From the UHGV virus genome UHGV-0277743: DNA of 11,098 bases; one strand, given 5' to 3'. Source of the DNA: a virus. This document shows positions 1-11,098 of the stretch, piece after piece. Below the pieces are notes generated by a model. It was not told the DNA's origin, did no database searches, and worked only from the letters and a program-made list of their open reading frames with translations. The first letter of the stretch is position 1. Each line of letters starts with the position of its first letter. A program made the translations under genes and the position numbers.

Positions 1-135
1 GTTAACGTCACGCACGTGGACGAATGTTTTTGTGGAGTCACTACACGAGCAGAGAAAGCCATCTACGACCAGAAATTCTCTGGCGCAGCCGCCGACCTTC
101 TCAACGCTAACACCATCGACCGTAATTTCTGACAT
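1..135 (-). CDS. hypothetical protein, 5' portion only (ORF runs off the window start)
   Basis: ATG at 133-135 on minus strand, frame open through position 1 ([16 protein letters not shown]...). Absent from the ORF track because it has no in-window stop. No strong SD and no recognisable motif. Confidence 0.3.
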
Positions 136-269
136 AGTTAAGGCATCCGCTCCTACCACCAGAAAATGATAAACTTTGCTTGTATCTGCTCTATTAATGC
201 CAGACTTTGCTGTCATATTGCTGGATTTTGGCGACATACCAGCCAGTGAAAATATCTTCTTCTGGGCGG

Positions 270-452
270 TTAGCATTTGTTAACCTCCGCGAACTCCTTC
301 ATGAAACGTGCCAGCGGTTGTACGCATGGCGATTGATACCCGTCGCGATAAAACGTCACTCGGTTGTGAGACACGCTTTCGACAGTAACGAGTGCTCCGT
401 GGGCATCTTTGTAGCGTTTTTGGGGTTGTGGTGTTCCTGTCGGCTTAAACAT
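270..452 (-). CDS. small hypothetical protein (60 aa)
   Basis: Internal ATG of track ORF 270..539, preceded by GGAGG with a 6-nt spacer. The longer N-terminal extension would overlap the upstream antirepressor gene by about 95 nt, so I use the ATG at 452. Product MFKPTGTPQPQKRYKDAHG...; no motif recognised. Confidence 0.45.
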   Translation of the reverse strand: MFKPTGTPQPQKRYKDAHGALVTVESVSHNRVTFYRDGYQSPCVQPLARFMKEFAEVNKC

Positions 453-1278
453 GGACCGCCTCCAGACGCTTGGCGAGCCAGCGTTGCGACAGGCGGGTGA
501 GTTCTCCTTTGCGCTGCTCATATTCCATGCCCATATCAATTAACGTGATATTGGTGCTTTCGAGATATGAGAGGTGCTCAAGCTGTTCTGCGTTCATATG
601 GTCGCGAGGTTCGCCAGAATAGCCATTTATCCGCGCCCACTGCTTAGCAGTTAGCCCACCAAGAACGATACGAGAAATCATATTGCTCTCGTTTGTGTAG
701 TGGTGTTGCTGCGTCGTTTTCCCCTGCTCGGCACGGGCCATATTCAGCGCATCGCACATTGGCTTAAAGTTGTTTGCGGCACTAATACGGGCTTTTAGCT
801 GGCGACGATAGCGGGCGGCGATTTCAGGCACGCTACGCTGTAATTCTTCCTCGCACTGGATGAAATAACGACGGATAGCGCGACCCTGATCATTGCGTTC
901 GATCATTGCCAGTTCTTTCGCCATTCCGACACTTAACAGATAGTCTTTGCCGGGTCTGCCAGAGTGCTTAATCTTGCTGTAAGCCGCGCCATTCGGGCTT
1001 TTCCCCAAATTTGGGGAAATTGTTTTATGGACTGAGTAATCGTGCCCAATGGTGAAGTCATATTCAGAGATGCGATCAGTGATCCATGTAGAGAAGTCTT
1101 TTCCCACGCCCAACGCTTTGTGTAACGCTTTTGCGCTAACAATATTGGTTTCACGCCCACCGATATGACCAGGAATAACCGGGACAATTGCGGCAAATTC
1201 ATTACCGTTAATTGTGCCCAGAGAGGCGTTCAGATGAGGGGCGGCCTCAGAAATTAATCTGCTTTTTTCGATGTTCAT
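445..1278 (-). CDS. phage antirepressor-family protein (AntA/KilA-C-like N-terminal half)
   Basis: 277-aa ORF. The N-terminal half carries the pattern I associate with phage antirepressor domains (..NIVSAKALHKALGVGKDFSTWITDRISEYDF..GHDY.. and ..DYLLSVGMAKELAMIERNDQGRAIRRYFIQCEEEL). Same strand and downstream of alpA. Family assignment is from memory of the motif, not from a search. Confidence 0.65.
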   Translation of the reverse strand: MNIEKSRLISEAAPHLNASLGTINGNEFAAIVPVIPGHIGGRETNIVSAKALHKALGVGKDFSTWITDRISEYDFTIGHDYSVHKTISPNLGKSPNGAAYSKIKHSGRPGKDYLLSVGMAKELAMIERNDQGRAIRRYFIQCEEELQRSVPEIAARYRRQLKARISAANNFKPMCDALNMARAEQGKTTQQHHYTNESNMISRIVLGGLTAKQWARINGYSGEPRDHMNAEQLEHLSYLESTNITLIDMGMEYEQRKGELTRLSQRWLAKRLEAVHV

Positions 1279-1290
1279 TTTCAGTCTCCG

Positions 1291-1722
1291 TTAGGCGGCG
1301 TTAAACGCGTCCGGGTAGAGTTTCAGAATGTCGGCAATTTCCTGCTGAGAAAGTCCGTTGTGATCATTTATGTTCGCAAGATGGTTAATATGAGTGATCA
1401 CTTTCAGAACATCACCACGGCAGGAGAAACGGTAGCGAAGGTGTGTTCCGATACCATCAGGATTCTTTTCGTCGATACGCTCCAGAGTGATTCCAAGCTG
1501 GCGTTCTAACTCTGTTGCATAGTTACGACCAGAAGACAGATGGCAGTAGCGAAGAATGTCATTTTCTGTCCATCCCTCTATACCAGTACGCAGCATATAG
1601 ACTCTGGCACGATGCTTTTTCGGTGTGCGCTTTGGTGCTTGAAGGGATTTTGTAAGGGGCGTAACATCAGATACGCGAATATCTGAATTAGCCGCCTGTA
1701 ATGGGCGGTTTTTCTTTTCCAT
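1291..1722 (-). CDS. hypothetical protein (143 aa), basic N-terminus
   Basis: Start ATG 1720-1722 overlaps the alpA stop (TGATG arrangement), suggesting translational coupling. Lys/Arg-rich N-terminal stretch (PKRTPKKHRAR). No domain recognised. Confidence 0.6.
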   Translation of the reverse strand: MEKKNRPLQAANSDIRVSDVTPLTKSLQAPKRTPKKHRARVYMLRTGIEGWTENDILRYCHLSSGRNYATELERQLGITLERIDEKNPDGIGTHLRYRFSCRGDVLKVITHINHLANINDHNGLSQQEIADILKLYPDAFNAA

Positions 1723-1925
1723 CAGGCCACCTTCCCGCGGCGTTCTGCCAGCCAGTTGTGAATCTCAACCGCATCAAACGCAGTTATTTTTTCTCCCAGC
1801 TTTACCGGACGTGGTAGTGAACCGTTTCTTACTTTACGGTCGATGGTGGATACACTAACGCCCAGCAATTCAGCTAGGCGGAAGCGTCTGATATAGCCTT
1901 TTGTAGGAATAGTGTCGGTGTTCAT
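1722..1925 (-). CDS. alpA: AlpA-family prophage regulatory protein / excisionase-like HTH
   Basis: 67-aa product with the AlpA/Vis-type signature: FRLAELLGVSVSTIDRKVRNGSLPRPVKLGEKITAFDAVEIHNWLAERRG (HTH followed by a conserved W). Size and position next to an integrase are typical. Confidence 0.8.
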   Translation of the reverse strand: MNTDTIPTKGYIRRFRLAELLGVSVSTIDRKVRNGSLPRPVKLGEKITAFDAVEIHNWLAERRGKVA

Positions 1926-1994
1926 GCTTCCCGTAACCTCTTAGCGATAGTTGTTGCTTCGTTACGGGAGGAAGTATCTGTACATATATGAACA

Positions 1995-2023
1995 ATAAAA
2001 AGGCACAGTAATGATACTGTGCC
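1995..2023 (-). terminator. intrinsic terminator downstream of the AT-rich orphan gene
   Basis: Minus-strand RNA reads GGCACAGUA-ucau-UACUGUGCC followed by UUUUUAUU: a 9-bp stem, 4-nt loop and U-tract, 17 nt after the stop at 2040. Confidence 0.65.
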
Positions 2024-2039
2024 TGAATAGTTAGCTACT

Positions 2040-3005
2040 CTACCCCTTACCGTTGGCGGCAGCACGTAAGTGTCTCAAAATCACATCTTCATTTGTGATT
2101 GCTAACGGTGGAATTTCGTCTTTATGAGCCACTATGCAATCCCGCCACTTCTCAGGGCTTATTTCTTTCTTTTTGCCACGGCATTCATCAGGATACTTTG
2201 ACAAAAGATATATTGCTGATTTGAAAAGTTTTTCCCTGTTTTCAGCATGTCTCTCGGCATTATGGTTGCTATTTTTTATTTCAGGTATTAGTTCCTGTTC
2301 TACCGCCATTTCGTATCGTTTTTTGCTCTTAGCTGCGTCAAAACTTCCATTAACCTTTGCGTCGTGAAGGTATTCTAAATCAGCCTTTGTTATATAAATG
2401 TTTTTATCTGACAGGCTACTCAGGTGAATCTGGGAACTTTGCATTTTGAATTTATATAGATCACAATCAAATGTTGCTTCAAGTCGCACATATGGCTCTC
2501 CACATTCTTGTGAATGATAATGTCGTGTTGTACTACCGCGTACACGCAACAATCCACATGCAATTGATTTTCTTACAATAAAAGAGTTTTTGCCAATTTG
2601 TTCAAAAACATTTTTATTGTCTCTGTCTTCAACTGTCAGTGGTTTATGTGCATAAAATAGCTCATAAGCACCGCTTTCAGATGCTGGGATATAAACTTCG
2701 TTGCTTGCGCTGGTAATAAGAAAAGGAAATGTAAACCTTACTTCTTCTGGGTACATAAGTAATAAATCAGTTATAAAATCAGCATCTTTTTTGAAGTGGA
2801 TGGTGGCATCAGCTTCAATGAAATCAAGAAAGTCAGCATAGACATAAAAGTCTATATGTAGTCTATCTTTCCAATGCCATATATCATCAATTTCACAATT
2901 TAATAATTTTGATGCTCGCTCTATCGTGCAGTAGTCCAAAGGTGGGATACCTGATTCCTGCCATAAATTTCTATGCACCGCAGTTGTTTCATGAGAGTCG
3001 TTCAT
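2040..3005 (-). CDS. hypothetical protein (321 aa), AT-rich orphan gene in the integrase-alpA slot
   Basis: Complete ORF with AAGGTG 5 nt before the ATG at 3005 and its own terminator downstream. Hand counts on sample stretches give 32-37% GC, against about 57% in a sample of the integrase gene. No P-loop or other catalytic motif recognised. Confidence 0.7.
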   Translation of the reverse strand: MNDSHETTAVHRNLWQESGIPPLDYCTIERASKLLNCEIDDIWHWKDRLHIDFYVYADFLDFIEADATIHFKKDADFITDLLLMYPEEVRFTFPFLITSASNEVYIPASESGAYELFYAHKPLTVEDRDNKNVFEQIGKNSFIVRKSIACGLLRVRGSTTRHYHSQECGEPYVRLEATFDCDLYKFKMQSSQIHLSSLSDKNIYITKADLEYLHDAKVNGSFDAAKSKKRYEMAVEQELIPEIKNSNHNAERHAENREKLFKSAIYLLSKYPDECRGKKKEISPEKWRDCIVAHKDEIPPLAITNEDVILRHLRAAANGKG

Positions 3006-3100
3006 TGCGTCACCTTTTACGCTGCGCCTTATTTTGTGATTGAGCCAGGCGGTAAGGCTTCCCGCTTTTCGCCCCGTCGAGCTAGGCTCAATCTATTCAG

Positions 3101-4360
3101 TTAGTTCGCCCTTCTGAGAGGCGTTACGTTGTAGTCTTTTCCGCTTTCCAGTGCCACCAGCAGATCAGCCCACAGTGCCAGTGCTGCTTTACGCTCATCA
3201 AAATACTGATGGCGGTTATAAATCCCCTCTACGCCCTTAATGCGATGATTGAGGCATCGTTCCGCCACGACAGGATCAACACCCAACGCTGCTAAATGAG
3301 TACGTGCGGTGCGTCGGAAGTCGTGAATCGTGAAATTAGGCACATCCGGCATTTCGGCGCGAACCTTAGCCAGTGCTACGGGTAAAGTGCTTTCCTGAAT
3401 ATGTGGGATCATTCTGTTTTGCATTTTCCTGGCTGGAAGCACCCATGCGCTATTACATGAAAAGGTGTGTAGCTCTCTCAACCATTCAACGGCTGGGGAA
3501 GGTAGAGGTATATCAATAGGGTCTCCGTTTTTGCTGCGTTCTTCCGGCAAATGCCATACCGCACCATCTAAATCAAACTCTTCCCATCGTGCGGCGCATA
3601 ACTCCATCTTACGAACGCATAGTGCCAGCAATAGCTTAAATGTCAGTTCGTTCTGGCGGCTGAATCCTTTTGCGGTGCGCATAGCCTCGAATAGCCTGAT
3701 AAGCTCATCGCGAGTTAGCCAACGGTCGCGGGAAACCTCTTTACCACCAGCATCAGATACTTCAAACGCTGAACAAGGGTTTATCTCCAGAGCGTGGCGT
3801 TTTATCCCGTAGTCAAAGATACGGCGTGTCCAGCGTAATACATCTGTTGCTATCGTTGGTGCTCCTCGGTCAACGATACCTTTCAACATGTCGTCAATGT
3901 GGCGTGGCTTAACGTCCTCTACCTTCATATGCCCAATGCAGGGGTTAATATCCTTATCAATTCTCCGGCGAAGGATATCGGGATGTTTCCATCTCGGAAG
4001 TATCTGGCGCTCGAAGTATTCGGAGGCCAGATCTGAAACACGCATGGCGTTTTTCTCAGCCTCCATTTTTGCCAGTGCTTCAGCTTTTCGTTCCTGTTTC
4101 TCTGCTGCTACGTCATAGCCAAGAGCAACTCTGGCTGACAGCTCTTTGGCTGTCTCTCTGGCCTTTGATAGTGATAGCTCGCTATACGAACCAATTAGCA
4201 TGGCGCGGGACTTCCCTGCGAGTTTATAGCGGAATCTCCATGTGGGGGTTTTGTCGGCTTCACGGTAACGTAGGTATAAACCGTTACCGTCTGCCCGCCC
4301 CTCGAATCGCTCTCCGCTCTTAATCCATGCGCGGATCTGCATGTCTGTTAGTTTTGGCAT
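3101..4360 (-). CDS. int: tyrosine integrase, P4 family
   Basis: N-terminus MPKLTDMQIRAWIKSGERFEGRADGNGLYLRY matches the arm-binding domain pattern of P4-type integrases. C-terminus carries HDFRRT and CLNHRIKGVEGIYNRHQY (the H-x-x-R and catalytic Tyr region). Start trimmed from the track value 4501 to the ATG at 4358-4360, because the conserved N-terminus begins there and the extension would run through a terminator hairpin. Confidence 0.9.
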   Translation of the reverse strand: MPKLTDMQIRAWIKSGERFEGRADGNGLYLRYREADKTPTWRFRYKLAGKSRAMLIGSYSELSLSKARETAKELSARVALGYDVAAEKQERKAEALAKMEAEKNAMRVSDLASEYFERQILPRWKHPDILRRRIDKDINPCIGHMKVEDVKPRHIDDMLKGIVDRGAPTIATDVLRWTRRIFDYGIKRHALEINPCSAFEVSDAGGKEVSRDRWLTRDELIRLFEAMRTAKGFSRQNELTFKLLLALCVRKMELCAARWEEFDLDGAVWHLPEERSKNGDPIDIPLPSPAVEWLRELHTFSCNSAWVLPARKMQNRMIPHIQESTLPVALAKVRAEMPDVPNFTIHDFRRTARTHLAALGVDPVVAERCLNHRIKGVEGIYNRHQYFDERKAALALWADLLVALESGKDYNVTPLRRAN

Positions 4361-4390
4361 TTTGCGAATATCCAAACTTTGAATAGGGGG

Positions 4391-4442
4391 TGTACCCAAA
4401 GCAATGTACCCAAACCTCATTGGGTACACCTTTGTGTACACC
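4391..4442. promoter_or_regulatory. GTAC-core operator-like repeats in the int promoter region
   Basis: Two TGTACCCAAA copies (4391-4400, 4405-4414) followed by TGGGTACACC-TTT-GTGTACACC (4421-4442). The near-palindrome GGTGTACACC gives dyad symmetry. Sits 30-80 bp upstream of the int start codon. Confidence 0.45.
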
Positions 4443-4482
4443 ATAATCATGCGCTTTGTTGCGTCGTTATGATAGCTCATGA

Positions 4483-4513
4483 TAACAAAAAAGCCCGACA
4501 TTTCGCGGGCTTT
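4483..4513 (-). terminator. intrinsic terminator between the two-gene cassette and int
   Basis: Minus-strand RNA reads AAAGCCCG-cgaaaugu-CGGGCUUU followed by UUUGUUAUC. The same hairpin on the plus strand is followed by TATGGTTTTTT, so it may act in both directions, less well on the plus strand. Confidence 0.55.
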
Positions 4514-4632
4514 ATGGTTTTTTGCTGCTTGGTGATTTTTGCTGATAGCTTATTCGATATTCTGAATCTGTTTATTGAGTATGAGCCTCTATGCTGCGTG
4601 GTTACTGGATTCCTTGTAATGCTTCTTATAAT

Positions 4633-4655
4633 TAGGTACACCCATGTGTACACGG
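4633..4655. promoter_or_regulatory. second copy of the palindromic GGTACACC-n3-GTGTACAC module
   Basis: TAGGTACACC-CAT-GTGTACACGG aligns with 4421-4442 (TGGGTACACC-TTT-GTGTACACC). The GTAC cores are 12 bp apart in both copies. The two copies flank the terminator hairpin. Confidence 0.45.
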
Positions 4656-4791
4656 TATTTTGAGGTGCTGTCTTTGGCTGCTCATTTTATGCTCTCGTGC
4701 TTGCTGTTCTGGGCTACGTGCCAAACCGCAGCGAATACCTCCGTCTGCCAGATGAGCAAAACATACCTTATAAAGAAAATCGCTGTTTTTG

Positions 4792-4894
4792 CTGTACCAC
4801 CTGTACCACCATGTCACAAACCCTTGTGTGACGCGGCCTGCAGGTGGTACAGGTGGGTAAAAATGACCTCTCCCCACCTGTACAGACCTGTACC
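4792..4894. repeat. iteron cluster B with nested inverted repeats (candidate ori or attP core region)
   Basis: The 9-mer GGTACAGGT or its complement occurs at 4799-4807 (-), 4847-4855 (+) and 4886-4894 (-), with related copies at 4792-4798 and 4876-4884. A perfect 14-bp inverted repeat CCACCTGTACCACC (4797-4810) / GGTGGTACAGGTGG (4843-4856) encloses an inner 6-bp inverted repeat GTCACA (4813-4818) / TGTGAC (4827-4832) with an 8-bp spacer. Confidence 0.5.
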
Positions 4895-4900
4895 ATTTAT

Positions 4901-5638
4901 TTAATTTTTACCCATAGCAGCACATAATCCCTTTTTTGAAATATTGAAAAATGCGTTCATTCTTCCCGCTGGCTTAACCTTGTAGCCGCTTGCCACCATC
5001 GCCGCAATAAATGCTCCGTTGGGGATATAGTGCGGGTGATCACTGTGCTGGTGGTTTATCTGGTTATATCGCTCCACTTCATGCTTCAACGTGTCAGATG
5101 TGGGGTTATCCTGCGGGAAGCTCTCAATCTGGGCATTACTCATCCCGTTGTCTCTGATCCATCTCAGGCAGCTTTTCGCCGATACGATAAATGACGGGTT
5201 ATCAAGCGGGTTTTCCCAGTCCGCATTCCGGTTGTGGAGCGCCAGTCCGTCAAGGTTAAATTGTGGGTATTCAGCGGTAATTACTGTCACTGCGTGGCGG
5301 ATTTCAGTCTCGTCACAACATGGCTCATCTCCCACACCAGCAGGGTAATAATCTGAACCACCGGGACTGATACAGCGTTTACCACTGAAAGGCCATTGCT
5401 TCGCCATTTCGGGTGTTGAGTGATTACCGTCGCTCCGTTCGCGCTGTGCCTCTGTCCACTGGCTGGCATATTCAGTAAATGAAACCCTTTGCCCCTGACG
5501 CATCCAGTGCGCAATCATAATTAAAGTGCGTTCCAGACTTTGGATGTCGCCAGCATTCCCGCACTGTGTAGCGAAACTTTTTAATTCTTCGCGCTCCGTT
5601 CTGGTCATTCCCTGCGGTATGCAATAGTTATTGCTCAT
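4901..5638 (-). CDS. hypothetical protein (245 aa), second gene of a two-gene cassette
   Basis: ATG at 5636-5638 preceded by AGAGAGGT with a 5-nt spacer. Overlaps the upstream 76-aa gene by 11 nt. His-rich C-terminal patch (INHQHSDHPHYIPNG). No family recognised. Confidence 0.65.
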   Translation of the reverse strand: MSNNYCIPQGMTRTEREELKSFATQCGNAGDIQSLERTLIMIAHWMRQGQRVSFTEYASQWTEAQRERSDGNHSTPEMAKQWPFSGKRCISPGGSDYYPAGVGDEPCCDETEIRHAVTVITAEYPQFNLDGLALHNRNADWENPLDNPSFIVSAKSCLRWIRDNGMSNAQIESFPQDNPTSDTLKHEVERYNQINHQHSDHPHYIPNGAFIAAMVASGYKVKPAGRMNAFFNISKKGLCAAMGKN

Positions 5639-5858
5639 GTTTTACCTCTCTGATTTCTGCTGCCATATCTGTTGGCTCTATACAGCCGTCCCGACTTGCC
5701 ACGCAGGGAATAATGATTTCAACGGTATCGCCGTCAATACACATTTCAACATTCGCCCATGCCGCAATGGGTAGCCAGTCTGAACGCCCCTCAAACCGTA
5801 GCTGCCAGCCAGAGGAAGAAGCTAACTGGCGCACTTTGTAAAATGGTGTGCTCATCAT
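5628..5858 (-). CDS. hypothetical protein (76 aa), first gene of the two-gene cassette
   Basis: Tandem ATG ATG at 5858-5853 with GAGAGGG 8 nt upstream. Stop overlaps the start of the 245-aa gene. No HTH or other motif recognised. Confidence 0.55.
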   Translation of the reverse strand: MMSTPFYKVRQLASSSGWQLRFEGRSDWLPIAAWANVEMCIDGDTVEIIIPCVASRDGCIEPTDMAAEIREVKHEQ

Positions 5859-5902
5859 TGGTTGTTCCCTCTCAGCCAGCCAGAAGAAATGCGTTTGTTA
5901 AT

Positions 5903-6005
5903 GGTATAGGTGGTACAGGTCTGGTATAGGTAAGACATTGACCTGTACCACTATAACACATTGTTTTTAATGCTGAATTAGCAAAGTGGTATAGGTGGTA
6001 CAGGT
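5903..6005. repeat. iteron cluster A immediately downstream of the primase-helicase gene (crr/ori-like)
   Basis: Identical 18-mer GGTATAGGTGGTACAGGT at 5903-5920 and 5988-6005; partial copy GGTATAGGT at 5923-5931; inverted copy ACCTGTACCACTATA at 5941-5955. The basic unit is the 9-mer GGTAYAGGT. Flanked by AT-rich sequence (6006-6034). Confidence 0.6.
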
Positions 6006-6034
6006 AAAAACGATCTTCTTGTAAAAAGACTATA

Positions 6035-8386
6035 TTAAAAAACATCATAACCCCCCATACCGATCAGACGGGCAAACGCAGCCTGTAGAACTCCGACCTC
6101 TGGTAGTTCGTAGAACACGCCATTCCCTCGGTCTGGTCTTCCATGCTTCACCAGCCCCATTTGTGCAAGTGATTTACCCAGTAGTGATCTGGCAGCTGGT
6201 TCTTTAAGCTTTTCCCCACGCTCAAGCGACCACGCTACAAACCGACTAACCATATCCTTTGCAAACAAACGGACTTCGCCATTAAACGGAGGTTCATTGA
6301 TTAGCTCGCCATAAAGAAACAATTCAACGCCAGACAGCCCCAGCAAGATTTCTTCACGTAAGGCATCGGTCTGTGGCGCTCGTTGAGGGTCAAAACCTGA
6401 GAGATCCACCCCTTTAAGATGCCAAAGCAACTTTGCGGCACCGCCATCATTAAGCCAACTGTACAGCCGATCAAAATACTCCCGGCTCTGTGCTTTTTCA
6501 GGAGATGGCTCAAGCACGAGATAGCGACGCTCTCTTATCCCTGCCTGTAATACCTGTGTGCTGTTACTGGCAAATATCAACCGGGCAAAATTCGGCATTG
6601 GTTCAGCATCAATTCCCTTGCGCTCAAGGTTAAACGTCGGTTCGCTAATAATCGCTTTAAGTCTGTCAGCTTCAGACGGCTTGTGGATCGTCACTTCGTC
6701 AGCAAATACCAGTAGCTTGTTAGCAAGTATTGAATTGAAGCGCCCTGAAATATGTCCCGCCCCGTTAATGTGGGCGGCGTACTGCCCCAGTATTTGCAGC
6801 AGCGGTTTAACCGTTGTGCCTTTCCCTGTGCCCGGGACAGATTTCATCACGATTGCCACGGACGGTTTTTCATCAGGCTTTTGGATAATGTGCGCCATCC
6901 ACTGGATAAGATATTGGTATGCCTCTTCATTACCGGCACAGACAACCTGCAACAGGTGATTAAGGTATACCGTGCAATCTCCTTCAATTGGTTCCAGTGC
7001 CAGCCCCTCATACAGATTAAAAACATCGTCAGGGCATTTGTCTGGTACTGGATAAAATCCTACGCCTCCTGGCTTGTAGTTCTTCCCACTCCATGACAGC
7101 CACGCCGATCCCGCCAGCTTTCTGGCGACTCTCGGTTTATGATGAAAATAATGCTGAAATTGTGATAAATCCTCGAAAACGTGCGATACACCGCCGGTTT
7201 GAGAAGGCTTTAGCGACACCACCTTGTGTTTCCCGCCGATGGTGACATGCGTAAACGTCCGGTTGATTTCTTCGAGGACAGCAATTTCATCATCGCTTAA
7301 CACCTCGCCAGAACTGATCTCATTCAGCGCCCCGACTGACTGTTTGTGATTTTTCACCTGCGCCCCTTTCCCCCGTGGCTGGTACATCGAATCTTTAAAT
7401 GCTGCTGTGGCTGCCGCCAGCCCGTGTTGTTGGTGATAGTCGTTCCAGTCGGCTTTATAGTCAGTCGGTGGCAGAGACACCCAGCCAGCTACGGAAATAG
7501 CGGCCCTCTCTGCGGCATCTTTCCCCGTGTTGATCCCTCCACTTTCGGAGTTTCCTTGCTGGTGATCGTTATCTGCGGCAATGATGATTTGTGCCTGTGG
7601 ATATGTTCTGCGCATGACTTCCGCTACTGGCAACAGGTTGCCAGCGTCGATTGCTGCCACTGTCATTGCGTCAGGGCGAATTAAATGGCACGACAGGGCG
7701 GTAGCCACCCCCTCAGCAATTATGATGCTGTGAGGTCGTTTCTGTGCGTTTATGGCGTGATATGCCCCTCGCTTTGCTGAACCTGTCAGGAGTCTTTTTT
7801 CACCATGTGAGGTAATAGTCTGTGCTGCTGTGACTGCGCCGGATTTATCCACCAGCGCCAGCAACAGAGATCCATCGGGCAACACAGGGAATGTAAAATC
7901 ACCTACCCCTTTCGCAACCAGATAATCAGATTTGCCGTTTACAGCCTTTCTGCGCATGTCATCAAACTGACGGGAAAACGTATCCCGTCTTTGTTGTTCG
8001 TCCTTCTCTGCCCTTTTCAGGCGCTCCTGTTCGCGTCGCTGGCGCTCGGTTTCCAGTTGTTCCCGTTTCTGGCTGGTGGCTTCTGGTGTTTCCGTTGTCC
8101 GGTAATCAATACCCAGAACATCAGCGGCAAGCAGCGCCGCCTCTGTTGTGTCGCAGTTATTTACGCGTTTAATTAAATCCAGCCCATCACCAGCGCCGCA
8201 CTGATTACAGATGAAGCTACCGCGCCCGTTGTCATCGAACCGGAATCGATCTTTGCCCCCACATGCAGGGCAGGGAGCATGACGGCGCGGAGAGTCAGGG
8301 ACATTTATGTTCAGGCAGCCCAGCACATGAGGCCAGTTGTTTTCAGACGCACTGATAACCTGACGGATAAGATCAATGTTTCGCAT
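6035..8386 (-). CDS. bifunctional DNA primase-helicase, P4 alpha-like
   Basis: 783 aa from the ATG at 8384-8386 (the track starts one codon earlier at a GTG). N-terminal zinc ribbon CPACGGKD..CNQCGAGDG; Toprim motifs IIIAEGVATALS and IIIAADND; Walker A VPGTGKGT and Walker B LLVFADEV. GGGG SD 7 nt upstream. Resemblance to P4 alpha in length and domain order is from memory. Confidence 0.9.
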   Translation of the reverse strand: MRNIDLIRQVISASENNWPHVLGCLNINVPDSPRRHAPCPACGGKDRFRFDDNGRGSFICNQCGAGDGLDLIKRVNNCDTTEAALLAADVLGIDYRTTETPEATSQKREQLETERQRREQERLKRAEKDEQQRRDTFSRQFDDMRRKAVNGKSDYLVAKGVGDFTFPVLPDGSLLLALVDKSGAVTAAQTITSHGEKRLLTGSAKRGAYHAINAQKRPHSIIIAEGVATALSCHLIRPDAMTVAAIDAGNLLPVAEVMRRTYPQAQIIIAADNDHQQGNSESGGINTGKDAAERAAISVAGWVSLPPTDYKADWNDYHQQHGLAAATAAFKDSMYQPRGKGAQVKNHKQSVGALNEISSGEVLSDDEIAVLEEINRTFTHVTIGGKHKVVSLKPSQTGGVSHVFEDLSQFQHYFHHKPRVARKLAGSAWLSWSGKNYKPGGVGFYPVPDKCPDDVFNLYEGLALEPIEGDCTVYLNHLLQVVCAGNEEAYQYLIQWMAHIIQKPDEKPSVAIVMKSVPGTGKGTTVKPLLQILGQYAAHINGAGHISGRFNSILANKLLVFADEVTIHKPSEADRLKAIISEPTFNLERKGIDAEPMPNFARLIFASNSTQVLQAGIRERRYLVLEPSPEKAQSREYFDRLYSWLNDGGAAKLLWHLKGVDLSGFDPQRAPQTDALREEILLGLSGVELFLYGELINEPPFNGEVRLFAKDMVSRFVAWSLERGEKLKEPAARSLLGKSLAQMGLVKHGRPDRGNGVFYELPEVGVLQAAFARLIGMGGYDVF

Positions 8387-8744
8387 CACCGTACCCCACG
8401 TGGTCTATAGCGTTTGCGATATGGCTAACCAGCATCTGCCACTTGGTTATTCCGTAATCAGTCAGCATGCCATCATTGTTTAGCCACATATCAAATTCAG
8501 CGGTTGTCGCAAGTTTCCACTTATCGCCGTGGACAGTCCTCATTGCTGGGTACATGAATGCGCAAATCAGATCACAAACATCTGACGGCTTCAGAGATGT
8601 AGTAATGGTGCGTCCCTCTGGCGTCTGAATTGCCATTTTCTCTTCACCAGTAGAATGAAGGTTATGAATCCACACAGCACCAGCAATCTTTGCCACCTGC
8701 TCTCCGATTGCGGAGCTAAGCGCCATTTCTGCATTTTCACGCAT
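8373..8744 (-). CDS. hypothetical protein (123 aa), early operon
   Basis: ATG at 8742-8744 overlaps the upstream stop; its own stop overlaps the alpha start by 14 nt. No motif recognised. Confidence 0.6.
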   Translation of the reverse strand: MRENAEMALSSAIGEQVAKIAGAVWIHNLHSTGEEKMAIQTPEGRTITTSLKPSDVCDLICAFMYPAMRTVHGDKWKLATTAEFDMWLNNDGMLTDYGITKWQMLVSHIANAIDHVGYGDAKH

Positions 8745-9078
8745 GAGAACCTCCCGCTACAGTTGCGCCCATGTCATTAACCATGCTTTGCCATATCTCA
8801 CGCCCGACGTCAGTCAATCCGTCCTTAGTGACGCAACGCTCAAGAAGCTCGATCCCCACGGTTTCCCACTGCGGGTAGAACACTTTCATGGCTGCCAGTG
8901 TGTAGCTATCGATCAGGCTGCGAACGCCTTTTACTCCATTGACGATTTCCACACGTACGGCCTCGCCGTCCGCATCAACCATGAAATAGTCCCCGCCGCT
9001 GGTGGAGGTAATGTGGTTATACAGTGCCGACGCATACTTATTTGCCAGCGCATTCAGTCGGAAATTTTTAGTAATCAT
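8737..9078 (-). CDS. hypothetical protein (113 aa), early operon
   Basis: ATG at 9076-9078 preceded by AGGATGGAG, 10 nt after the upstream stop. No motif recognised. Confidence 0.6.
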   Translation of the reverse strand: MITKNFRLNALANKYASALYNHITSTSGGDYFMVDADGEAVRVEIVNGVKGVRSLIDSYTLAAMKVFYPQWETVGIELLERCVTKDGLTDVGREIWQSMVNDMGATVAGGSHA

Positions 9079-9088
9079 GGCTCCATCC

Positions 9089-9691
9089 TCAGTGCGTCAC
9101 TGGTTCCGCTGGCATGCCGTTTTCATTCAGTTCAGCTATAAAGCTGTTGTGAAGTTCAGCAAGCGTTTCACGCCCAAATGGAGTCAGTGCTCCTTGTTCC
9201 ACATCCATCATGGCTCTGTAGAAAATAATGGCGCGTTCTGTGCCAGACTCGATGCCAAAACGTTCTATCATCGCGCCCTCAATGTTGTTTGCCATAGCGA
9301 GGCGCTCTGCTACTGGATACAGCGGCATGGCGACGATGCCGTTGGAATAAACAGCCACTTCGGAAGGATTGCCAGTATCATCAATGATGCTGACAGTGCC
9401 GTTTTCCTCTCTCATTTCCAGCATGAATACTGTTGCGATCAGCCATCTCCACATAATGACGTTATGCTGTGATGTGTAATCGAAATATCCCTGGTTGCCG
9501 CCATCGGCAATAGCGAGATGTATTGACATACCTTCATCTGGTTTATCGTCATAATCCCCGGCATCCAGACGATTTACGGCATCAATATATGAGACGGCCT
9601 CAACGCGTTCTGTCATGCCATCGTTGCTGCGGTACATGATGTTTACGCCGTCAGGCGTTGCTTCTGCATGGAAAGTTAAGAAGTTATTCAT
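9089..9691 (-). CDS. hypothetical protein (about 200 aa), early operon
   Basis: Track ORF 9089..9796 trimmed to the in-frame ATG at 9689-9691 (MNNFLTFHAEATPDG...), 2 nt after the stop of the preceding 73-aa gene. The discarded N-terminal extension is Cys/Trp/His-rich and overlaps that gene. The start is uncertain; 9724 is an alternative. Confidence 0.5.
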   Translation of the reverse strand: MNNFLTFHAEATPDGVNIMYRSNDGMTERVEAVSYIDAVNRLDAGDYDDKPDEGMSIHLAIADGGNQGYFDYTSQHNVIMWRWLIATVFMLEMREENGTVSIIDDTGNPSEVAVYSNGIVAMPLYPVAERLAMANNIEGAMIERFGIESGTERAIIFYRAMMDVEQGALTPFGRETLAELHNSFIAELNENGMPAEPVTH

Positions 9692-9905
9692 GTTTCGCCT
9701 CGCCTGAATGATTCTGTAACTCATATTTGCCCAACAATTCGTCCGCTTCCTGAATAGCTTCTGGTACGCCATTGAGCAGTGACATAACCGCGCCAATCAT
9801 TAACTTGTCTCTGTTGCTGGGGCTGGCCCCTTCAAGCCAGAACCCTAAAACAGTCTGAACCTGTTCGATGCGACATTGCGCTTCAATGAGCTGGATGTTG
9901 GTCAT
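9684..9905 (-). CDS. hypothetical protein (73 aa), early operon
   Basis: ATG at 9903-9905 overlaps the upstream stop (ATGA), with GGAGAG upstream. Confidence 0.5.
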   Translation of the reverse strand: MTNIQLIEAQCRIEQVQTVLGFWLEGASPSNRDKLMIGAVMSLLNGVPEAIQEADELLGKYELQNHSGEAKHE

Positions 9906-10165
9906 TTCGCACTCTCCACATCGATTAAACCGATATCTATCAGGGAGGTAACTTTTTGTAGCCAGCTATTGATTACTGTCGCCTGTTCCCCGCCCACCGA
10001 GGGAACAATCTCATTCATCACATGAACCAGACCTGTGCGCGCTCTGGTAAGCCGTTCAGTCGCGCAATCTGCGGGAGTGAATGTGTCTGGATATGGCTCT
10101 TCACGCCCCAGCAATGATTCAATTTCCAGCTCACACGGATGACGATAAATTAAGTTGATATTCAT
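9902..10165 (-). CDS. hypothetical protein (87 aa), early operon
   Basis: ATG at 10163-10165 preceded by GGGGGTG with a 4-6 nt spacer; ATGA overlap with the upstream stop. Confidence 0.55.
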   Translation of the reverse strand: MNINLIYRHPCELEIESLLGREEPYPDTFTPADCATERLTRARTGLVHVMNEIVPSVGGEQATVINSWLQKVTSLIDIGLIDVESAK

Positions 10166-10356
10166 TTTTCACCCCCAAGAATTACCAGCTCGGCACGGGC
10201 ATCGTTAACCAAAGATGAGCACGCTTTAATCGCATCCACGACATCAGCAGCGTCCATTTCTTCAGCCGAAAGACTGACAGCAACCAGGACAGCCGCTGCT
10301 TGCTCGATTAATTGAAGTGCGGACGTAAGGCGAGGGGTATTAATTGAGTTATTCAT
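10162..10356 (-). CDS. hypothetical protein (64 aa), early operon
   Basis: Track ORF 10162..10413 trimmed to the ATG at 10354-10356 (MNNSINTPRL...), preceded by GGGGG. Acidic, Ala-rich product. Confidence 0.5.
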   Translation of the reverse strand: MNNSINTPRLTSALQLIEQAAAVLVAVSLSAEEMDAADVVDAIKACSSLVNDARAELVILGGEK

Positions 10357-10567
10357 TGGTTGCCCCCGTTTTGCATGGCATTTGTCCACCTTCCAGCAGG
10401 AAATGAACGTCACGAACGGCGAGATCCAATATCGCGAGTAACGCCTTCAGCCTTTCGTCTCGTGAGGGAGAGTTGCTCACCAGAATGTCGTTAATCACTT
10501 CTGTCAGTGTGATGATCTGGCTTGTGCGTTCGAGGGGATCCATATGCACATCGTAGGTTTTAATCAT
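10349..10567 (-). CDS. hypothetical protein (72 aa), early operon
   Basis: ATG at 10565-10567 preceded by GGAGGTGGCAC, a strong SD. This is the 3' part of track ORF 10349..11095, whose upstream portion I do not accept as coding. Confidence 0.55.
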   Translation of the reverse strand: MIKTYDVHMDPLERTSQIITLTEVINDILVSNSPSRDERLKALLAILDLAVRDVHFLLEGGQMPCKTGATNE

Positions 10568-10754
10568 GTGCCACCTCCATGCGGATACGACCAGCAAAAA
10601 AGCAGACGTGATCGCGCACCAGAGAACGGCGAGCATCGCGTTCAGACTCGGCAGCAATATGATGAATTTTGGCGGTAATTGTCGGGCAATCGCGGCGAAC
10701 TGCGGCGATAATCCAGATAAATTGCGGTTTTTGGGTAGGGGTAGTAGCCAGCAT
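10560..10754 (-). CDS. hypothetical protein (64 aa), first gene of the early operon
   Basis: ATG at 10752-10754 preceded by GAGG with a 7-nt spacer. Its stop overlaps the next start (ATGATTAA). Competes with the long alternative-frame ORF 10349..11095, so confidence is modest. Confidence 0.45.
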   Translation of the reverse strand: MLATTPTQKPQFIWIIAAVRRDCPTITAKIHHIAAESERDARRSLVRDHVCFFAGRIRMEVAHD

Positions 10755-10913
10755 GTGGCAGCCTCTGATTCATGGTTTTGAGAACCACCACCGGAAACGC
10801 CAATTTCGCTGGTGGTGAACTGTACAGGGTTGGCGTAACCGGGAATCAGAGAAACCGGCGCGGATTGCTCCGCCCCCATACAGTCCACCATTGAACAGGT
10901 GTAACTGCGCGGC

Positions 10914-10939
10914 ACAAAAAAACACGCATGGCGCGTGTT
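10914..10939 (-). terminator. intrinsic terminator in the leader upstream of the early operon (candidate attenuator)
   Basis: Minus-strand RNA reads AACACGC-gccau-GCGUGUU followed by UUUUUGU, and the stem can extend with GCACAA/UUGUGC. Lies about 160 nt upstream of the first early gene. Confidence 0.45.
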
Positions 10940-11000
10940 GTGCGCTCTGATAATTACCGGGACGCCAATCCCGACACCAGATTTTGCTGGTGCGCTATAA

Positions 11001-11043
11001 CCATAAACCGTGTTGCCGCATAACGGCAAGCTCTTTTTTATGG
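11001..11043. other. stem-loop element in the leader (CCATAAA...TTTATGG with an inner GC hairpin)
   Basis: Outer inverted repeat CCATAAA (11001-11007) / TTTATGG (11037-11043) encloses the hairpin TTGCCG-cataa-CGGCAA. On the plus strand the hairpin is followed by a T-run, so it could also be a plus-strand terminator. Function unknown; the window ends 55 nt further on. Confidence 0.3.
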
Positions 11044-11098
11044 ACTCCGAAAACTCACTATTGGAAGCACCAGATGCACAATACATCGCGCTCATTTC

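What the first reader, a model, noticed from the sequence alone, without database searches (positions are those of the whole stretch)
4901..5858. Overlapping two-gene cassette (76 aa + 245 aa) sandwiched between two iteron clusters
The two ORFs overlap by 11 nt and each has a good SD. They lie between the iteron cluster that follows the primase-helicase gene (5903-6005) and the inverted-repeat cluster upstream of int (4792-4894). A small upstream gene with a larger downstream partner is the layout of toxin-antitoxin pairs and of several two-gene defense modules; it could equally be a replication accessory such as a copy-number regulator. Neither product matched anything I recognise; the larger has a His-rich patch (HQHSDHPH) that might bind metal.
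Basis: partly seen in the sequence, partly recalled or inferred. Interest (0 to 1): 0.6.

Follow-up and report, generated by a model that had tools for sequence, protein, structure and literature searches.

The report
Uncharacterised gene pair inside satellite origin
Two real but uncharacterised genes sit between two copies of the replication-origin repeats of a small E. coli phage-satellite island; they travel with its replication module and do not look like a toxin-antitoxin or defence pair.

Summary
Two minus-strand ORFs (76 aa, 5858-5628; 245 aa, 5638-4901) overlap by 11 nt. Each has a GAGAGG-type SD, and both are under purifying selection. They lie between two clusters of the iteron TGGTAYAGG.

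The window is a circularly permuted 11.1-kb EcCIMP1-like/P4-like satellite. Its gene order, primase-iterons-[76-245]-iterons-attP-int, is colinear with P4 alpha-crr-attP-int.

In every enterobacterial relative examined, the homolog directly follows the replicase and its origin. Four replicase architectures and seven or more iteron words are involved, and SSB often comes next.

The 76-aa gene occurs in only one sublineage. The His patch is not conserved.

Toxin-antitoxin and defence readings are not supported. The best reading is a DNA-binding accessory of the replication module that does not read iterons. The biochemical function is unknown. Interest is modest.

The parts
5628..5858 (-). 76-aa CDS: acidic (pI 4.6), predicted all-beta, restricted to one sublineage
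5866..5873 (-). Shine-Dalgarno GAGAGGGA, 7 nt upstream of the 76-aa ATG
   Evidence: Read from the sequence.
4901..5638 (-). 245-aa CDS: fusion of a helical N-domain (residues about 1-105, nt 5324-5638) and a winged-helix-like C-domain (residues about 106-245, nt 4904-5323)
   Evidence: dN/dS 0.156.
5644..5650 (-). Shine-Dalgarno GAGAGGT, 5 nt upstream of the 245-aa ATG, inside the 3' end of the 76-aa gene (suggests translational coupling)
   Evidence: Read from the sequence.
5902..6005 (.). Iteron cluster A: six TGGTAYAGG units in two sets around an AT-rich spacer, the canonical satellite ori immediately 3' of the primase gene
   Evidence: This architecture is described for Gram-negative PICI origins in PMC6092414.
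4791..4895 (.). Iteron cluster B: three exact and one 1-mismatch TGGTAYAGG units, plus a possible degenerate copy. It is a second, crr-like copy of the origin repeats.
   Evidence: Conserved at 99.7% in the E. coli islands.
5986..6020 (.). Left arm of the 37-nt imperfect inverted repeat that bounds ori-76-245-cluster B
   Evidence: score 40 against a shuffle maximum of 28.
4773..4809 (.). Right arm of the same inverted repeat
6035..8389 (-). P4-alpha-type primase-helicase (Zn_Ribbon_Prim + Toprim_3 + DUF5906). It is presumed to bind the iterons through its C-terminal end.
   Evidence: Iteron binding is an inference by analogy with P4 alpha.
4701..7365 (-). Exchangeable replicon block: helicase/origin-binding part of the primase + cluster A + 76 + 245 + cluster B + about 90 nt
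   Evidence: Boundaries come from the L001 versus EcCIMP1 BLAST mapped onto the window through.
4563..4700 (.). att junction of the excised circle (attL-side and attR-side homologies meet here)
   Evidence: window 3120-4570 matches the L001 int end, and 4563-4669 matches the L001 dinD-side end.

Best explanation
The cassette is an accessory part of the replication module of a small phage satellite. The satellite has an EcCIMP1-like PICI backbone and a P4-like replicon.

Shown:
- The element's order is primase-helicase, ori iterons, 76-aa gene, 245-aa gene, second iteron cluster, attP, int.
- The stretch from the helicase/origin-binding part of the primase through the second iteron cluster is swapped as one block between related satellites.
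- The 245-aa protein is a fusion of two families that also exist as stand-alone proteins.
- Its homologs always sit directly after the replicase and ori, often followed by SSB.

Inferred:
- The genes are transcribed on the same strand as the primase, as the tail of the helper-induced AlpA-dependent operon, so they are made when the satellite replicates.
- The basic C-domain is a dimerising winged helix of the RFX / P4-origin-binding-domain kind that binds nucleic acid.
- The N-domain is a protein-interaction module. It contacts a partner common to all these satellites, such as a host replisome or ssDNA-handling factor.
- Because the C-domain is conserved while the iteron words differ completely, it does not read the iterons. 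Those are left to each replicase's own C-terminal domain.
- The two iteron clusters are the equivalents of P4 ori and crr. The cassette simply lies between them.
- The acidic 76-aa protein is a lineage-specific, translationally coupled modulator of the 245-aa protein.

The exact biochemical activity is unknown.
For: Circular permutation and gene order.

Iterons are far above chance and confined to two clusters.

P4 has the same order, alpha-crr (two iteron-bearing repeats)-attP-int.

Block exchange: L001 14000-16665 (window 4701-7365) is replaced in EcCIMP1 by a DUF927 helicase part plus different iterons and no cassette. The flanks are 87-94% identical.

The primase helicase/origin-binding segment and the cassette are each found in 130 of 5426 complete E. 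coli genomes.

Position: homologs lie immediately downstream of the replicase plus its iteron gap in every enterobacterial locus examined. These include L002-L009, L011-L013 and most of L059-L070, with replicase families checked by Pfam for representative loci.
- The replicases fall into four architectures: Toprim+DUF5906, Toprim+DUF927, Toprim+D5_N/Pox_D5, and AAA_25.
- At least seven unrelated iteron words are involved.

SSB is the next gene in several loci, and the two genes overlap by 4 nt in L006.

A second iteron cluster also flanks the homolog in L009. In L004 it is a 92-nt inverted duplicate of the whole ori.

The C-domain core has pI 9.0 and the family median is 8.5.

Domain fusions: the N-domain occurs alone, fused to the C-domain, or fused to an RNA-polymerase alpha-CTD-like DNA-binding domain (P0107, 43 bits). 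The C-domain also occurs in tandem (P0085).
Against: - No sequence or profile link to any protein of known function.
- EcCIMP1 excises and is transduced without this cassette (PMC11773190), so the cassette is not generally required by this satellite type.
- Homologs accompany unrelated replicases, so no specific replicase partner can be named.
- Stand-alone C-domain genes in diverse bacteria and archaea have no conserved replication neighbours. Integrase was found in 5 and DUF5906 in 3 of 123 neighbouring proteins.
- More distant N-domain genes are not always next to a replicase (L074). One distant two-domain homolog lies in a Mu-like element.
- In PICIs the region after the ori is where packaging and interference genes are usually placed.
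Confidence: 0.4

Rival explanations
1. Helper-phage hijacking or interference factor. As the first genes after the ori, 76 and 245 would belong to the satellite's packaging/interference module. They would bind a helper protein, such as small terminase, a late regulator or a replication protein, in the way Rpp or Ppi do in other PICIs.
For: - The position after pri-rep/ori is where PICI packaging and interference genes lie (PMC6739421; PMC11773190 discussion).
- In L003 and L005 the homolog directly precedes lambda gpE/gpD-like capsid genes.
- The family is restricted to satellite-like elements and is absent from 50,697 phage records.
- An N-domain that interacts with proteins would be compatible with this reading.
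Against: - No similarity to Rpp, whose solved structures are in the PDB.
- The cassette is exchanged with the replicon, not with the downstream P22-like ejection-protein module. That module is shared at 93% with EcCIMP1, which lacks the cassette.
- The window keeps the cassette but has lost the downstream module.
- Neighbours are SSB and ProQ rather than morphogenesis genes in most lineages.
- In L003 and L005 a terminator and a separate promoter region separate the homolog from the capsid genes.
Confidence: 0.22
2. Transcription factor. The winged-helix C-domain binds a promoter, and the protein switches on or off satellite, host or helper genes. Possible targets are the cargo or late module, or host genes, as the PerC proteins of these islands do.
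For: - Winged-helix-like fold and a basic C-domain.
- One N-domain protein is fused to an RNA-polymerase alpha-CTD-like domain.
- PerC regulators are frequent neighbours.
Against: - The conserved promoter-like region of the downstream module is present at 93% identity in EcCIMP1, which has no 245-aa gene. The window has the gene but not that module.
- No conserved candidate operator was found next to homologs across lineages.
- N-domain-only versions have no DNA-binding domain.
Confidence: 0.15
3. Toxin-antitoxin or two-gene anti-phage defence module. The 245-aa protein would be a toxin or effector neutralised by the 76-aa protein.
For: - A small acidic upstream gene overlaps a larger downstream gene.
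- Satellites of this type do carry defence cargo (literature).
- Both proteins are unannotated.
Against: - Most 245-aa homologs have no 76-aa partner and no alternative small ORF in the gap.
- The N-domain or C-domain alone exist as stand-alone genes.
- No hit in PADLOC, Pfam or NCBIfam toxin, antitoxin or defence models.
- The cassette lies in the core replicon block, not in the variable cargo region.
- No strong promoter of its own was found.
Confidence: 0.05

Closest known systems
Satellite phage P4 replicon (alpha primase-helicase, ori, crr, Cnr)
   Same: - P4-alpha-type primase-helicase architecture.
- Short iterons in two separated clusters.
- The same order: primase, iteron region, attP, int.
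- P4-like integrase, Ash and C4/CI-type RNA elsewhere in the window.
- A relative (L011) uses the exact P4 type-1 iteron TGTTCACC.
   Different: - No sid, delta or psu genes, and no P2/P4 cos.
- The two clusters are 1.06 kb apart with two genes between them. In P4, crr is two adjacent 120-bp repeats and ori lies 4.5 kb away.
- P4 has no homolog of either protein.
- Cnr (ORF106, DUF5375) lies upstream of alpha and shows no profile similarity.
EcCIMP1 and EcCIMP1-like PICIs of E. coli (Pick et al. 2025, PMC11773190)
   Same: The same backbone: int, AlpA, 143-aa protein, AntA, DUF4222, Ash and small ORFs, at about 88-94% DNA identity. There is also an iteron ori after the primase. The helper is probably a P22-like headful phage, and no cos site is present.
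   Different: EcCIMP1 carries a DUF927 primase C-part with GTTGGTTCA iterons and no 76/245 cassette or second iteron cluster. The window in turn lacks EcCIMP1's ejection-protein and PerC region.
Gram-negative PICI pri-rep/ori module and Rpp (EcCICFT073)
   Same: The ori lies immediately 3' of the replicase, as two iteron sets around an AT-rich spacer. The genes that follow are on the same strand.
   Different: Rpp is a 144-153-aa winged-HTH mimic of TerS that works with cos helpers. The two proteins here are unrelated to it in sequence, and no cos is present.
Iteron plasmids with a rep gene flanked by iteron arrays (P1 incC-repA-incA, F; from my own knowledge)
   Same: A gene of about 250 codons is bracketed by two arrays of the same iteron. 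The second array could act in copy control by titration or handcuffing.
   Different: The bracketed protein is not the initiator. It has no Rep_3 hit, its N-domain is not a winged helix, and its residues do not co-vary with the iteron sequence.

Membership tests
Type II toxin-antitoxin pair | The two genes are co-inherited as an obligate pair | tested here: not met
   The 76-aa family has 12 clusters, confined to window-type elements and a few enterobacterial relatives (Raoultella, Pantoea, Salmonella). The 245-aa homologs in L002-L006 and L011 have no 76-aa gene and no other ORF in the gap.
Type II toxin-antitoxin pair | Homology to a known toxin or antitoxin family | tested here: not met
   No Pfam, NCBIfam, PADLOC or PDB hit for either protein.
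Type II toxin-antitoxin pair | Toxicity of the larger protein, neutralised by the smaller one | not testable with these tools
   Needs expression experiments.
Known anti-phage defence systems (PADLOC) | Match to a defence protein model, and a location in a variable cargo hotspot | tested here: not met
   No PADLOC hit. The cassette lies inside the conserved replicon block, upstream of the cargo.
P4 Cnr-type copy-number regulator | Sequence homology to Cnr (ORF106, DUF5375) | tested here: not met
   hhalign of A4 and A3 against P4 ORF106 gave E 0.24 and 0.83. No DUF5375 hit.
P4 Cnr-type copy-number regulator | Winged-helix fold of the RFX / P4-origin-binding-domain type | tested here: inconclusive
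P4 Cnr-type copy-number regulator | Binds the replicase origin-binding domain and lowers copy number | not testable with these tools
   Needs two-hybrid or pull-down and copy-number assays. The argument against a replicase-specific contact is that homologs accompany four unrelated replicase architectures.
P4-like bipartite origin (ori + crr) | An alpha-type primase-helicase, followed by iterons in two separate clusters, in the order primase-iterons-attP-int | tested here: met
P4-like bipartite origin (ori + crr) | Both clusters are required in cis and bound by the primase C-terminal domain | not testable with these tools
   Needs mini-replicon deletions and EMSA.
Iteron-plasmid initiator (Rep_3 / RepA-RepE-pi) | Rep_3 homology, two winged-helix domains, and specificity residues that track the iteron sequence | tested here: not met
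   No Rep_3 hit. The N-domain is a helical bundle. C-domain residues are conserved across elements with unrelated iterons.
PICI Rpp (packaging redirection) | Homology to RppA-C (144-153 aa, TerS-like winged HTH) and a cos site in the island | tested here: not met
   No PDB sequence hit, although Rpp structures are deposited. No lambda or P2/P4 cos above chance.
Gram-negative PICI / EcCIMP1-like satellite (the host element) | int + AlpA + primase-replicase with a 3' iteron ori, no structural or lysis genes, size about 10-20 kb | tested here: met
   Helper-dependent induction was not tested for this element; it has been shown only for EcCIMP1.

The most novel reading that the evidence does not exclude
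The 245-aa protein could define a new class of satellite replication controller. A dimerising RFX/P4-origin-binding-domain-like winged helix would be tethered to a protein-interaction domain. Like P4 Cnr but unrelated to it, it would regulate origin firing, or looping between the two inverted origin copies that flank its gene. An alternative role is switching replication towards concatemers for headful packaging. If so, the two constituent domains would be founding members of two widespread uncharacterised families (837 representatives at E<1e-3) with roles in DNA replication of mobile elements.
Probability: 0.12. Interest if true: 0.55.

Novelty: new variant of a known kind. Interest (0 to 1): 0.3.

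Why it matters
EcCIMP1-like, 'Type C' PICIs are common in E. coli but poorly understood. How they replicate and get packaged without recognisable packaging genes is still open.

This analysis shows that one widespread replicon variant, present in about 2.4% of complete E. coli genomes, has a P4-like two-part origin enclosing two conserved unknown genes. It also shows that the larger gene's two domains belong to two large uncharacterised protein families.

That gives a defined 2.7-kb module for mini-replicon experiments. It also gives a first functional handle, replication-module association, for those families. It is not a new kind of system, and there is no sign of a defence or toxin function.

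Tried and rejected
- Pfam, PHROGs, NCBIfam and PADLOC scans of both proteins found nothing, apart from the unknown-function phrog_9576 for the C-domain.
- PDB sequence and profile searches found nothing.
- The BFVD fold search found nothing significant.
- The afdb50 fold library was unavailable.
- tblastn against phage records with the 245-aa protein, a C-domain-only member and an N-domain-only member gave no match.
- tblastn against plasmids found only a decayed fragment next to SSB and PerC in two Klebsiella plasmids, plus one weak Mycolicibacterium hit.
- Accession search in the literature returned no paper.
- Rpp homology was rejected for the 245-aa, 76-aa and 143-aa proteins.
- The PIME (conjugation-mobilised island) idea, prompted by the SSB and ProQ neighbours, was rejected because there are no tra genes.
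- The iteron-binding initiator idea was rejected because C-domain residues are invariant across unrelated iterons.
- Profile similarity of the C-domain to the window primase C-terminus, the P4 origin-binding domain and Cnr was tested; none was found.
- Neighbourhood analysis of 42 stand-alone C-domain loci found no conserved partner.
- The His-patch metal site was rejected because the patch is not conserved.
- Cos sites were searched for and none was found.

Full report
**Observation**

The two ORFs exist, both on the minus strand. The 76-aa ORF is at 5858-5628 and the 245-aa ORF at 5638-4901, sharing 11 nt. Reading the sequence gives GAGAGGGA 7 nt before the first ATG. It gives GAGAGGT 5 nt before the second, inside the end of the first gene, which suggests translational coupling.

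Both are real genes. The orthologous pair in a Raoultella island (L009) has the same 11-nt overlap. Against it, dN/dS is 0.075 for the 76-aa gene and 0.156 for the 245-aa gene, at dS of about 0.9.

The flanking repeats are real. TGGTAYAGG occurs 9 times exactly, only in 4800-4895 and 5902-6004, against 0.14 expected.
- Cluster A (5902-6005) has the usual satellite-origin shape: two iteron sets around an AT-rich spacer, directly 3' of the primase gene (PMC6092414).
- Cluster B (4791-4895) holds three exact units and one 1-mismatch unit.
- The outer ends of the two clusters form a 37-nt imperfect inverted repeat (4773-4809 / 5986-6020), scoring 40 against a shuffle maximum of 28.

**What the window is**

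The window matches an island between yicC and dinD in E. coli. Window end 11098 is contiguous with window start 1 in that island, so the window is a circular permutation of an 11.1-kb element. The attL-side and attR-side homologies meet at about 4563-4700.

Read on the minus strand, the circle runs as follows:
- int
- a 321-aa ORF
- AlpA
- a 143-aa ORF
- AntA
- an Ash-like region
- small ORFs
- a P4-alpha-type primase-helicase (Zn ribbon, Toprim, DUF5906)
- cluster A
- the 76-aa gene
- the 245-aa gene
- cluster B
- attP, then back to int

The backbone is that of EcCIMP1, an experimentally mobilised PICI whose helper is the P22-like phage Kapi1 (PMC11773190). The window has no P2/P4 cos and no lambda cos. 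It carries C4-type and isrK RNAs and the int-alpA RNA.

P4 itself has the order alpha, crr (two iteron-bearing repeats), attP, int. The window is therefore colinear with P4, except that the two genes lie between the two iteron clusters.

**The cassette belongs to the replicon block**

I compared the E. coli island L001 with EcCIMP1. Homology of 87-94% is interrupted exactly over L001 14000-16665, which is window 4701-7365. That stretch covers the helicase/origin-binding part of the primase, cluster A, both genes, cluster B and about 90 nt.

EcCIMP1 has a DUF927 helicase part and different iterons (GTTGGTTCA) in that place, and no cassette. Downstream, both share the promoter region and the P22-like ejection-protein genes at 93%. 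The window's homology to L001 also ends at 4701.

In complete E. coli genomes, the helicase/origin-binding segment and the cassette are each found in 130 of 5426 genomes, always on the chromosome.

**The 245-aa protein**

It has no hit in Pfam, NCBIfam, PADLOC or PDB sequences. Close homologs form only 29 clusters, all from Enterobacterales where an organism is named.

An exhaustive profile search found 837 representatives at E<1e-3. It showed that the protein is a fusion of two families:
- The N-domain family (residues about 1-105) also exists as stand-alone proteins of 90-120 aa.
- The C-domain family (residues about 110-244) also exists as stand-alone proteins of 120-140 aa, with the motif SYGLKHxVE...YISNGAFIAA...G...NAxFNIS.

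Neither family has a Pfam or PDB profile match. PHROGs lists the matching families only as unknown function.

- ORC, Cdc6 and Cdt1 winged helices
- PriRep1

From my own knowledge of the 1ka8 structure paper, the P4 origin-binding domain and RFX1 share an unusual winged helix in which helix 3 serves dimerisation. The very hydrophobic third helix of the C-domain (NGAFIAAMVA) would fit that arrangement. This is inference, not a tested result.

The C-domain core is basic, with pI 9.0 and a family median of 8.5. The N-domain is near neutral.

Domain fusions point the same way. The N-domain occurs alone, fused to this C-domain, or fused to an RNA-polymerase alpha-CTD-like DNA-binding domain (P0107). 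The C-domain also occurs in tandem (P0085).

**Context of homologs**

In every enterobacterial locus examined, the homolog lies directly after a replicase and a 180-410-nt iteron gap.
- The replicases fall into four architectures: Toprim+DUF5906, Toprim+DUF927, Toprim+D5_N/Pox_D5, and AAA_25.
- The iteron words are unrelated. They include TGGTAYAGG, TTGTCGGT, AAGTGGGT, AAGTGCGC, AAAGTGGGG, GTGAGGAG, and the true P4 word TGTTCACC.

The C-domain residues stay the same across all of these, so the protein does not read the iterons.

SSB, then ProQ and PerC, commonly follow. In L006 the SSB gene overlaps the homolog by 4 nt.

A second iteron cluster downstream of the gene is also present in L009. 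In L004 it is a 92-nt inverted duplicate of the entire origin, scoring 104 against a shuffle maximum of 28. It is absent from the AAA_25 replicons.

Stand-alone C-domain genes are scattered through Proteobacteria, Actinobacteria and archaea without conserved neighbours. One distant two-domain homolog lies in a Mu-like element.

**The 76-aa protein**

It is acidic (pI 4.6). It is predicted to be all-beta, but at low confidence (pLDDT 63), and has no fold match. It is confined to window-type elements and a few enterobacterial relatives (Raoultella, Pantoea and Salmonella entries). The gaps upstream of other 245-aa homologs contain no equivalent ORF. It is therefore a lineage-specific addition, not an obligate partner.

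**Interpretation**

The toxin-antitoxin and defence readings fail their testable criteria:
- The pair is not obligate.
- There is no family match.
- The cassette sits in the core replicon rather than the cargo.

A late-gene activator is unlikely. The shared downstream module and its promoter region occur without the gene in EcCIMP1, and the gene occurs without that module in the window.

A role in helper interference cannot be excluded, because genes after the ori often have such roles. The linkage to the replicon block and to SSB argues against it.

The best-supported reading, at about 0.4, is a DNA-binding accessory of the satellite's replication module. It would be co-expressed with the primase, with a protein-interaction N-domain and a winged-helix C-domain that does not recognise the iterons. 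The two iteron clusters would be the functional equivalent of P4 ori and crr.

EcCIMP1 functions without the cassette. Any role is therefore modulatory or specific to certain replicons, not essential to the satellite type.

**Novelty and score**

The element type, its origin architecture and its mosaic evolution are all known kinds of thing. Three points are new:
- this replicon variant has two conserved unknown genes nested between two origin copies;
- the larger gene is a fusion of two large uncharacterised families;
- those families now have a replication-module association.

Interest is modest, at 0.3.

Noticed in passing
window 1-11098 (junction 11098/1; att about 4563-4700): The window is a circular permutation of a complete 11.1-kb satellite. 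It is a minimal version of the 17-kb E. coli yicC-dinD island, lacking the P22-like 'DNA ejection protein' and PerC cargo that follows the 245-aa gene there.
   Followed up: yes
window 10808-10895 (-) and 10917-10993 (-): Rfam finds a C4 antisense RNA (76.7 bits) and isrK (81.1 bits) inside the mechanical 248-aa ORF 10349-11095. The N-terminal part of that ORF is therefore probably not coding, and the element has P1/P4-style RNA immunity upstream of its Ash-like gene.
   Followed up: partly
window 3026-3092 (-): int-alpA RNA (Rfam RF02996, 60.6 bits), between int and the 321-aa ORF.
   Followed up: no
window 2040-3005 (-): A 321-aa ORF occupies a variable slot between int and alpA. The slot holds a 216-aa protein in the E. 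coli islands and nothing in EcCIMP1. The only hit is a weak PADLOC PDC-S31 match (E 0.002), so this is possibly a cargo or defence slot.
   Followed up: no
window 8387-9090 (-): Two ORFs (123 aa and 113 aa) just upstream of the primase are absent from island L001. ORFs of the same sizes occupy the same position in EcCIMP1 (L014 14665-15370). This suggests further mosaicism among these satellites; I did not compare the sequences directly.
   Followed up: partly
window 4370-4513: The int ORF start at 4501 is over-called, since the RefSeq homolog is 422 aa. A bidirectional terminator-like hairpin lies at 4490-4513, at the yicC-derived end of att.
   Followed up: partly
L003 6884-8481 and L005 8540-10142: Relatives with an AAA_25 replicase carry lambda gpE-like (Phage_cap_E) and gpD-like (HDPD) capsid genes right after the 245-aa homolog, behind a terminator and a conserved promoter-like region.
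   Followed up: no
L009 12313-17398: The Raoultella island with the orthologous 76/245 pair carries tail-like genes (Dit_like, Pam3_gp18, Apex-like) as cargo.
   Followed up: no
L004 9821-9913 and 10828-10920 (approx.): In a DUF927-primase element with TTGTCGGT iterons, the 260-aa homolog is flanked by a 92-nt inverted duplication of the entire origin, including its AT-rich core.
   Followed up: yes
L011 7725-7945; L013 3173-3393: A non-P4 satellite uses eight copies of the exact P4 type-1 iteron TGTTCACC after a D5_N/Pox_D5 primase. An N-domain-only gene, SSB, ProQ and PerC follow.
   Followed up: partly
L077 7001-7780: An E. coli island in which the primase is cut down to a 259-aa C-terminal fragment still keeps intact 76-aa and 245-aa genes. 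About 11 genomes have such partial primase matches.
   Followed up: partly
L073 8001-9095: A distant 364-aa homolog containing both domains lies in a Mu-like element (rve/Mu-transpos_C, Mor, Mu-like protease), not next to a replicase.
   Followed up: no
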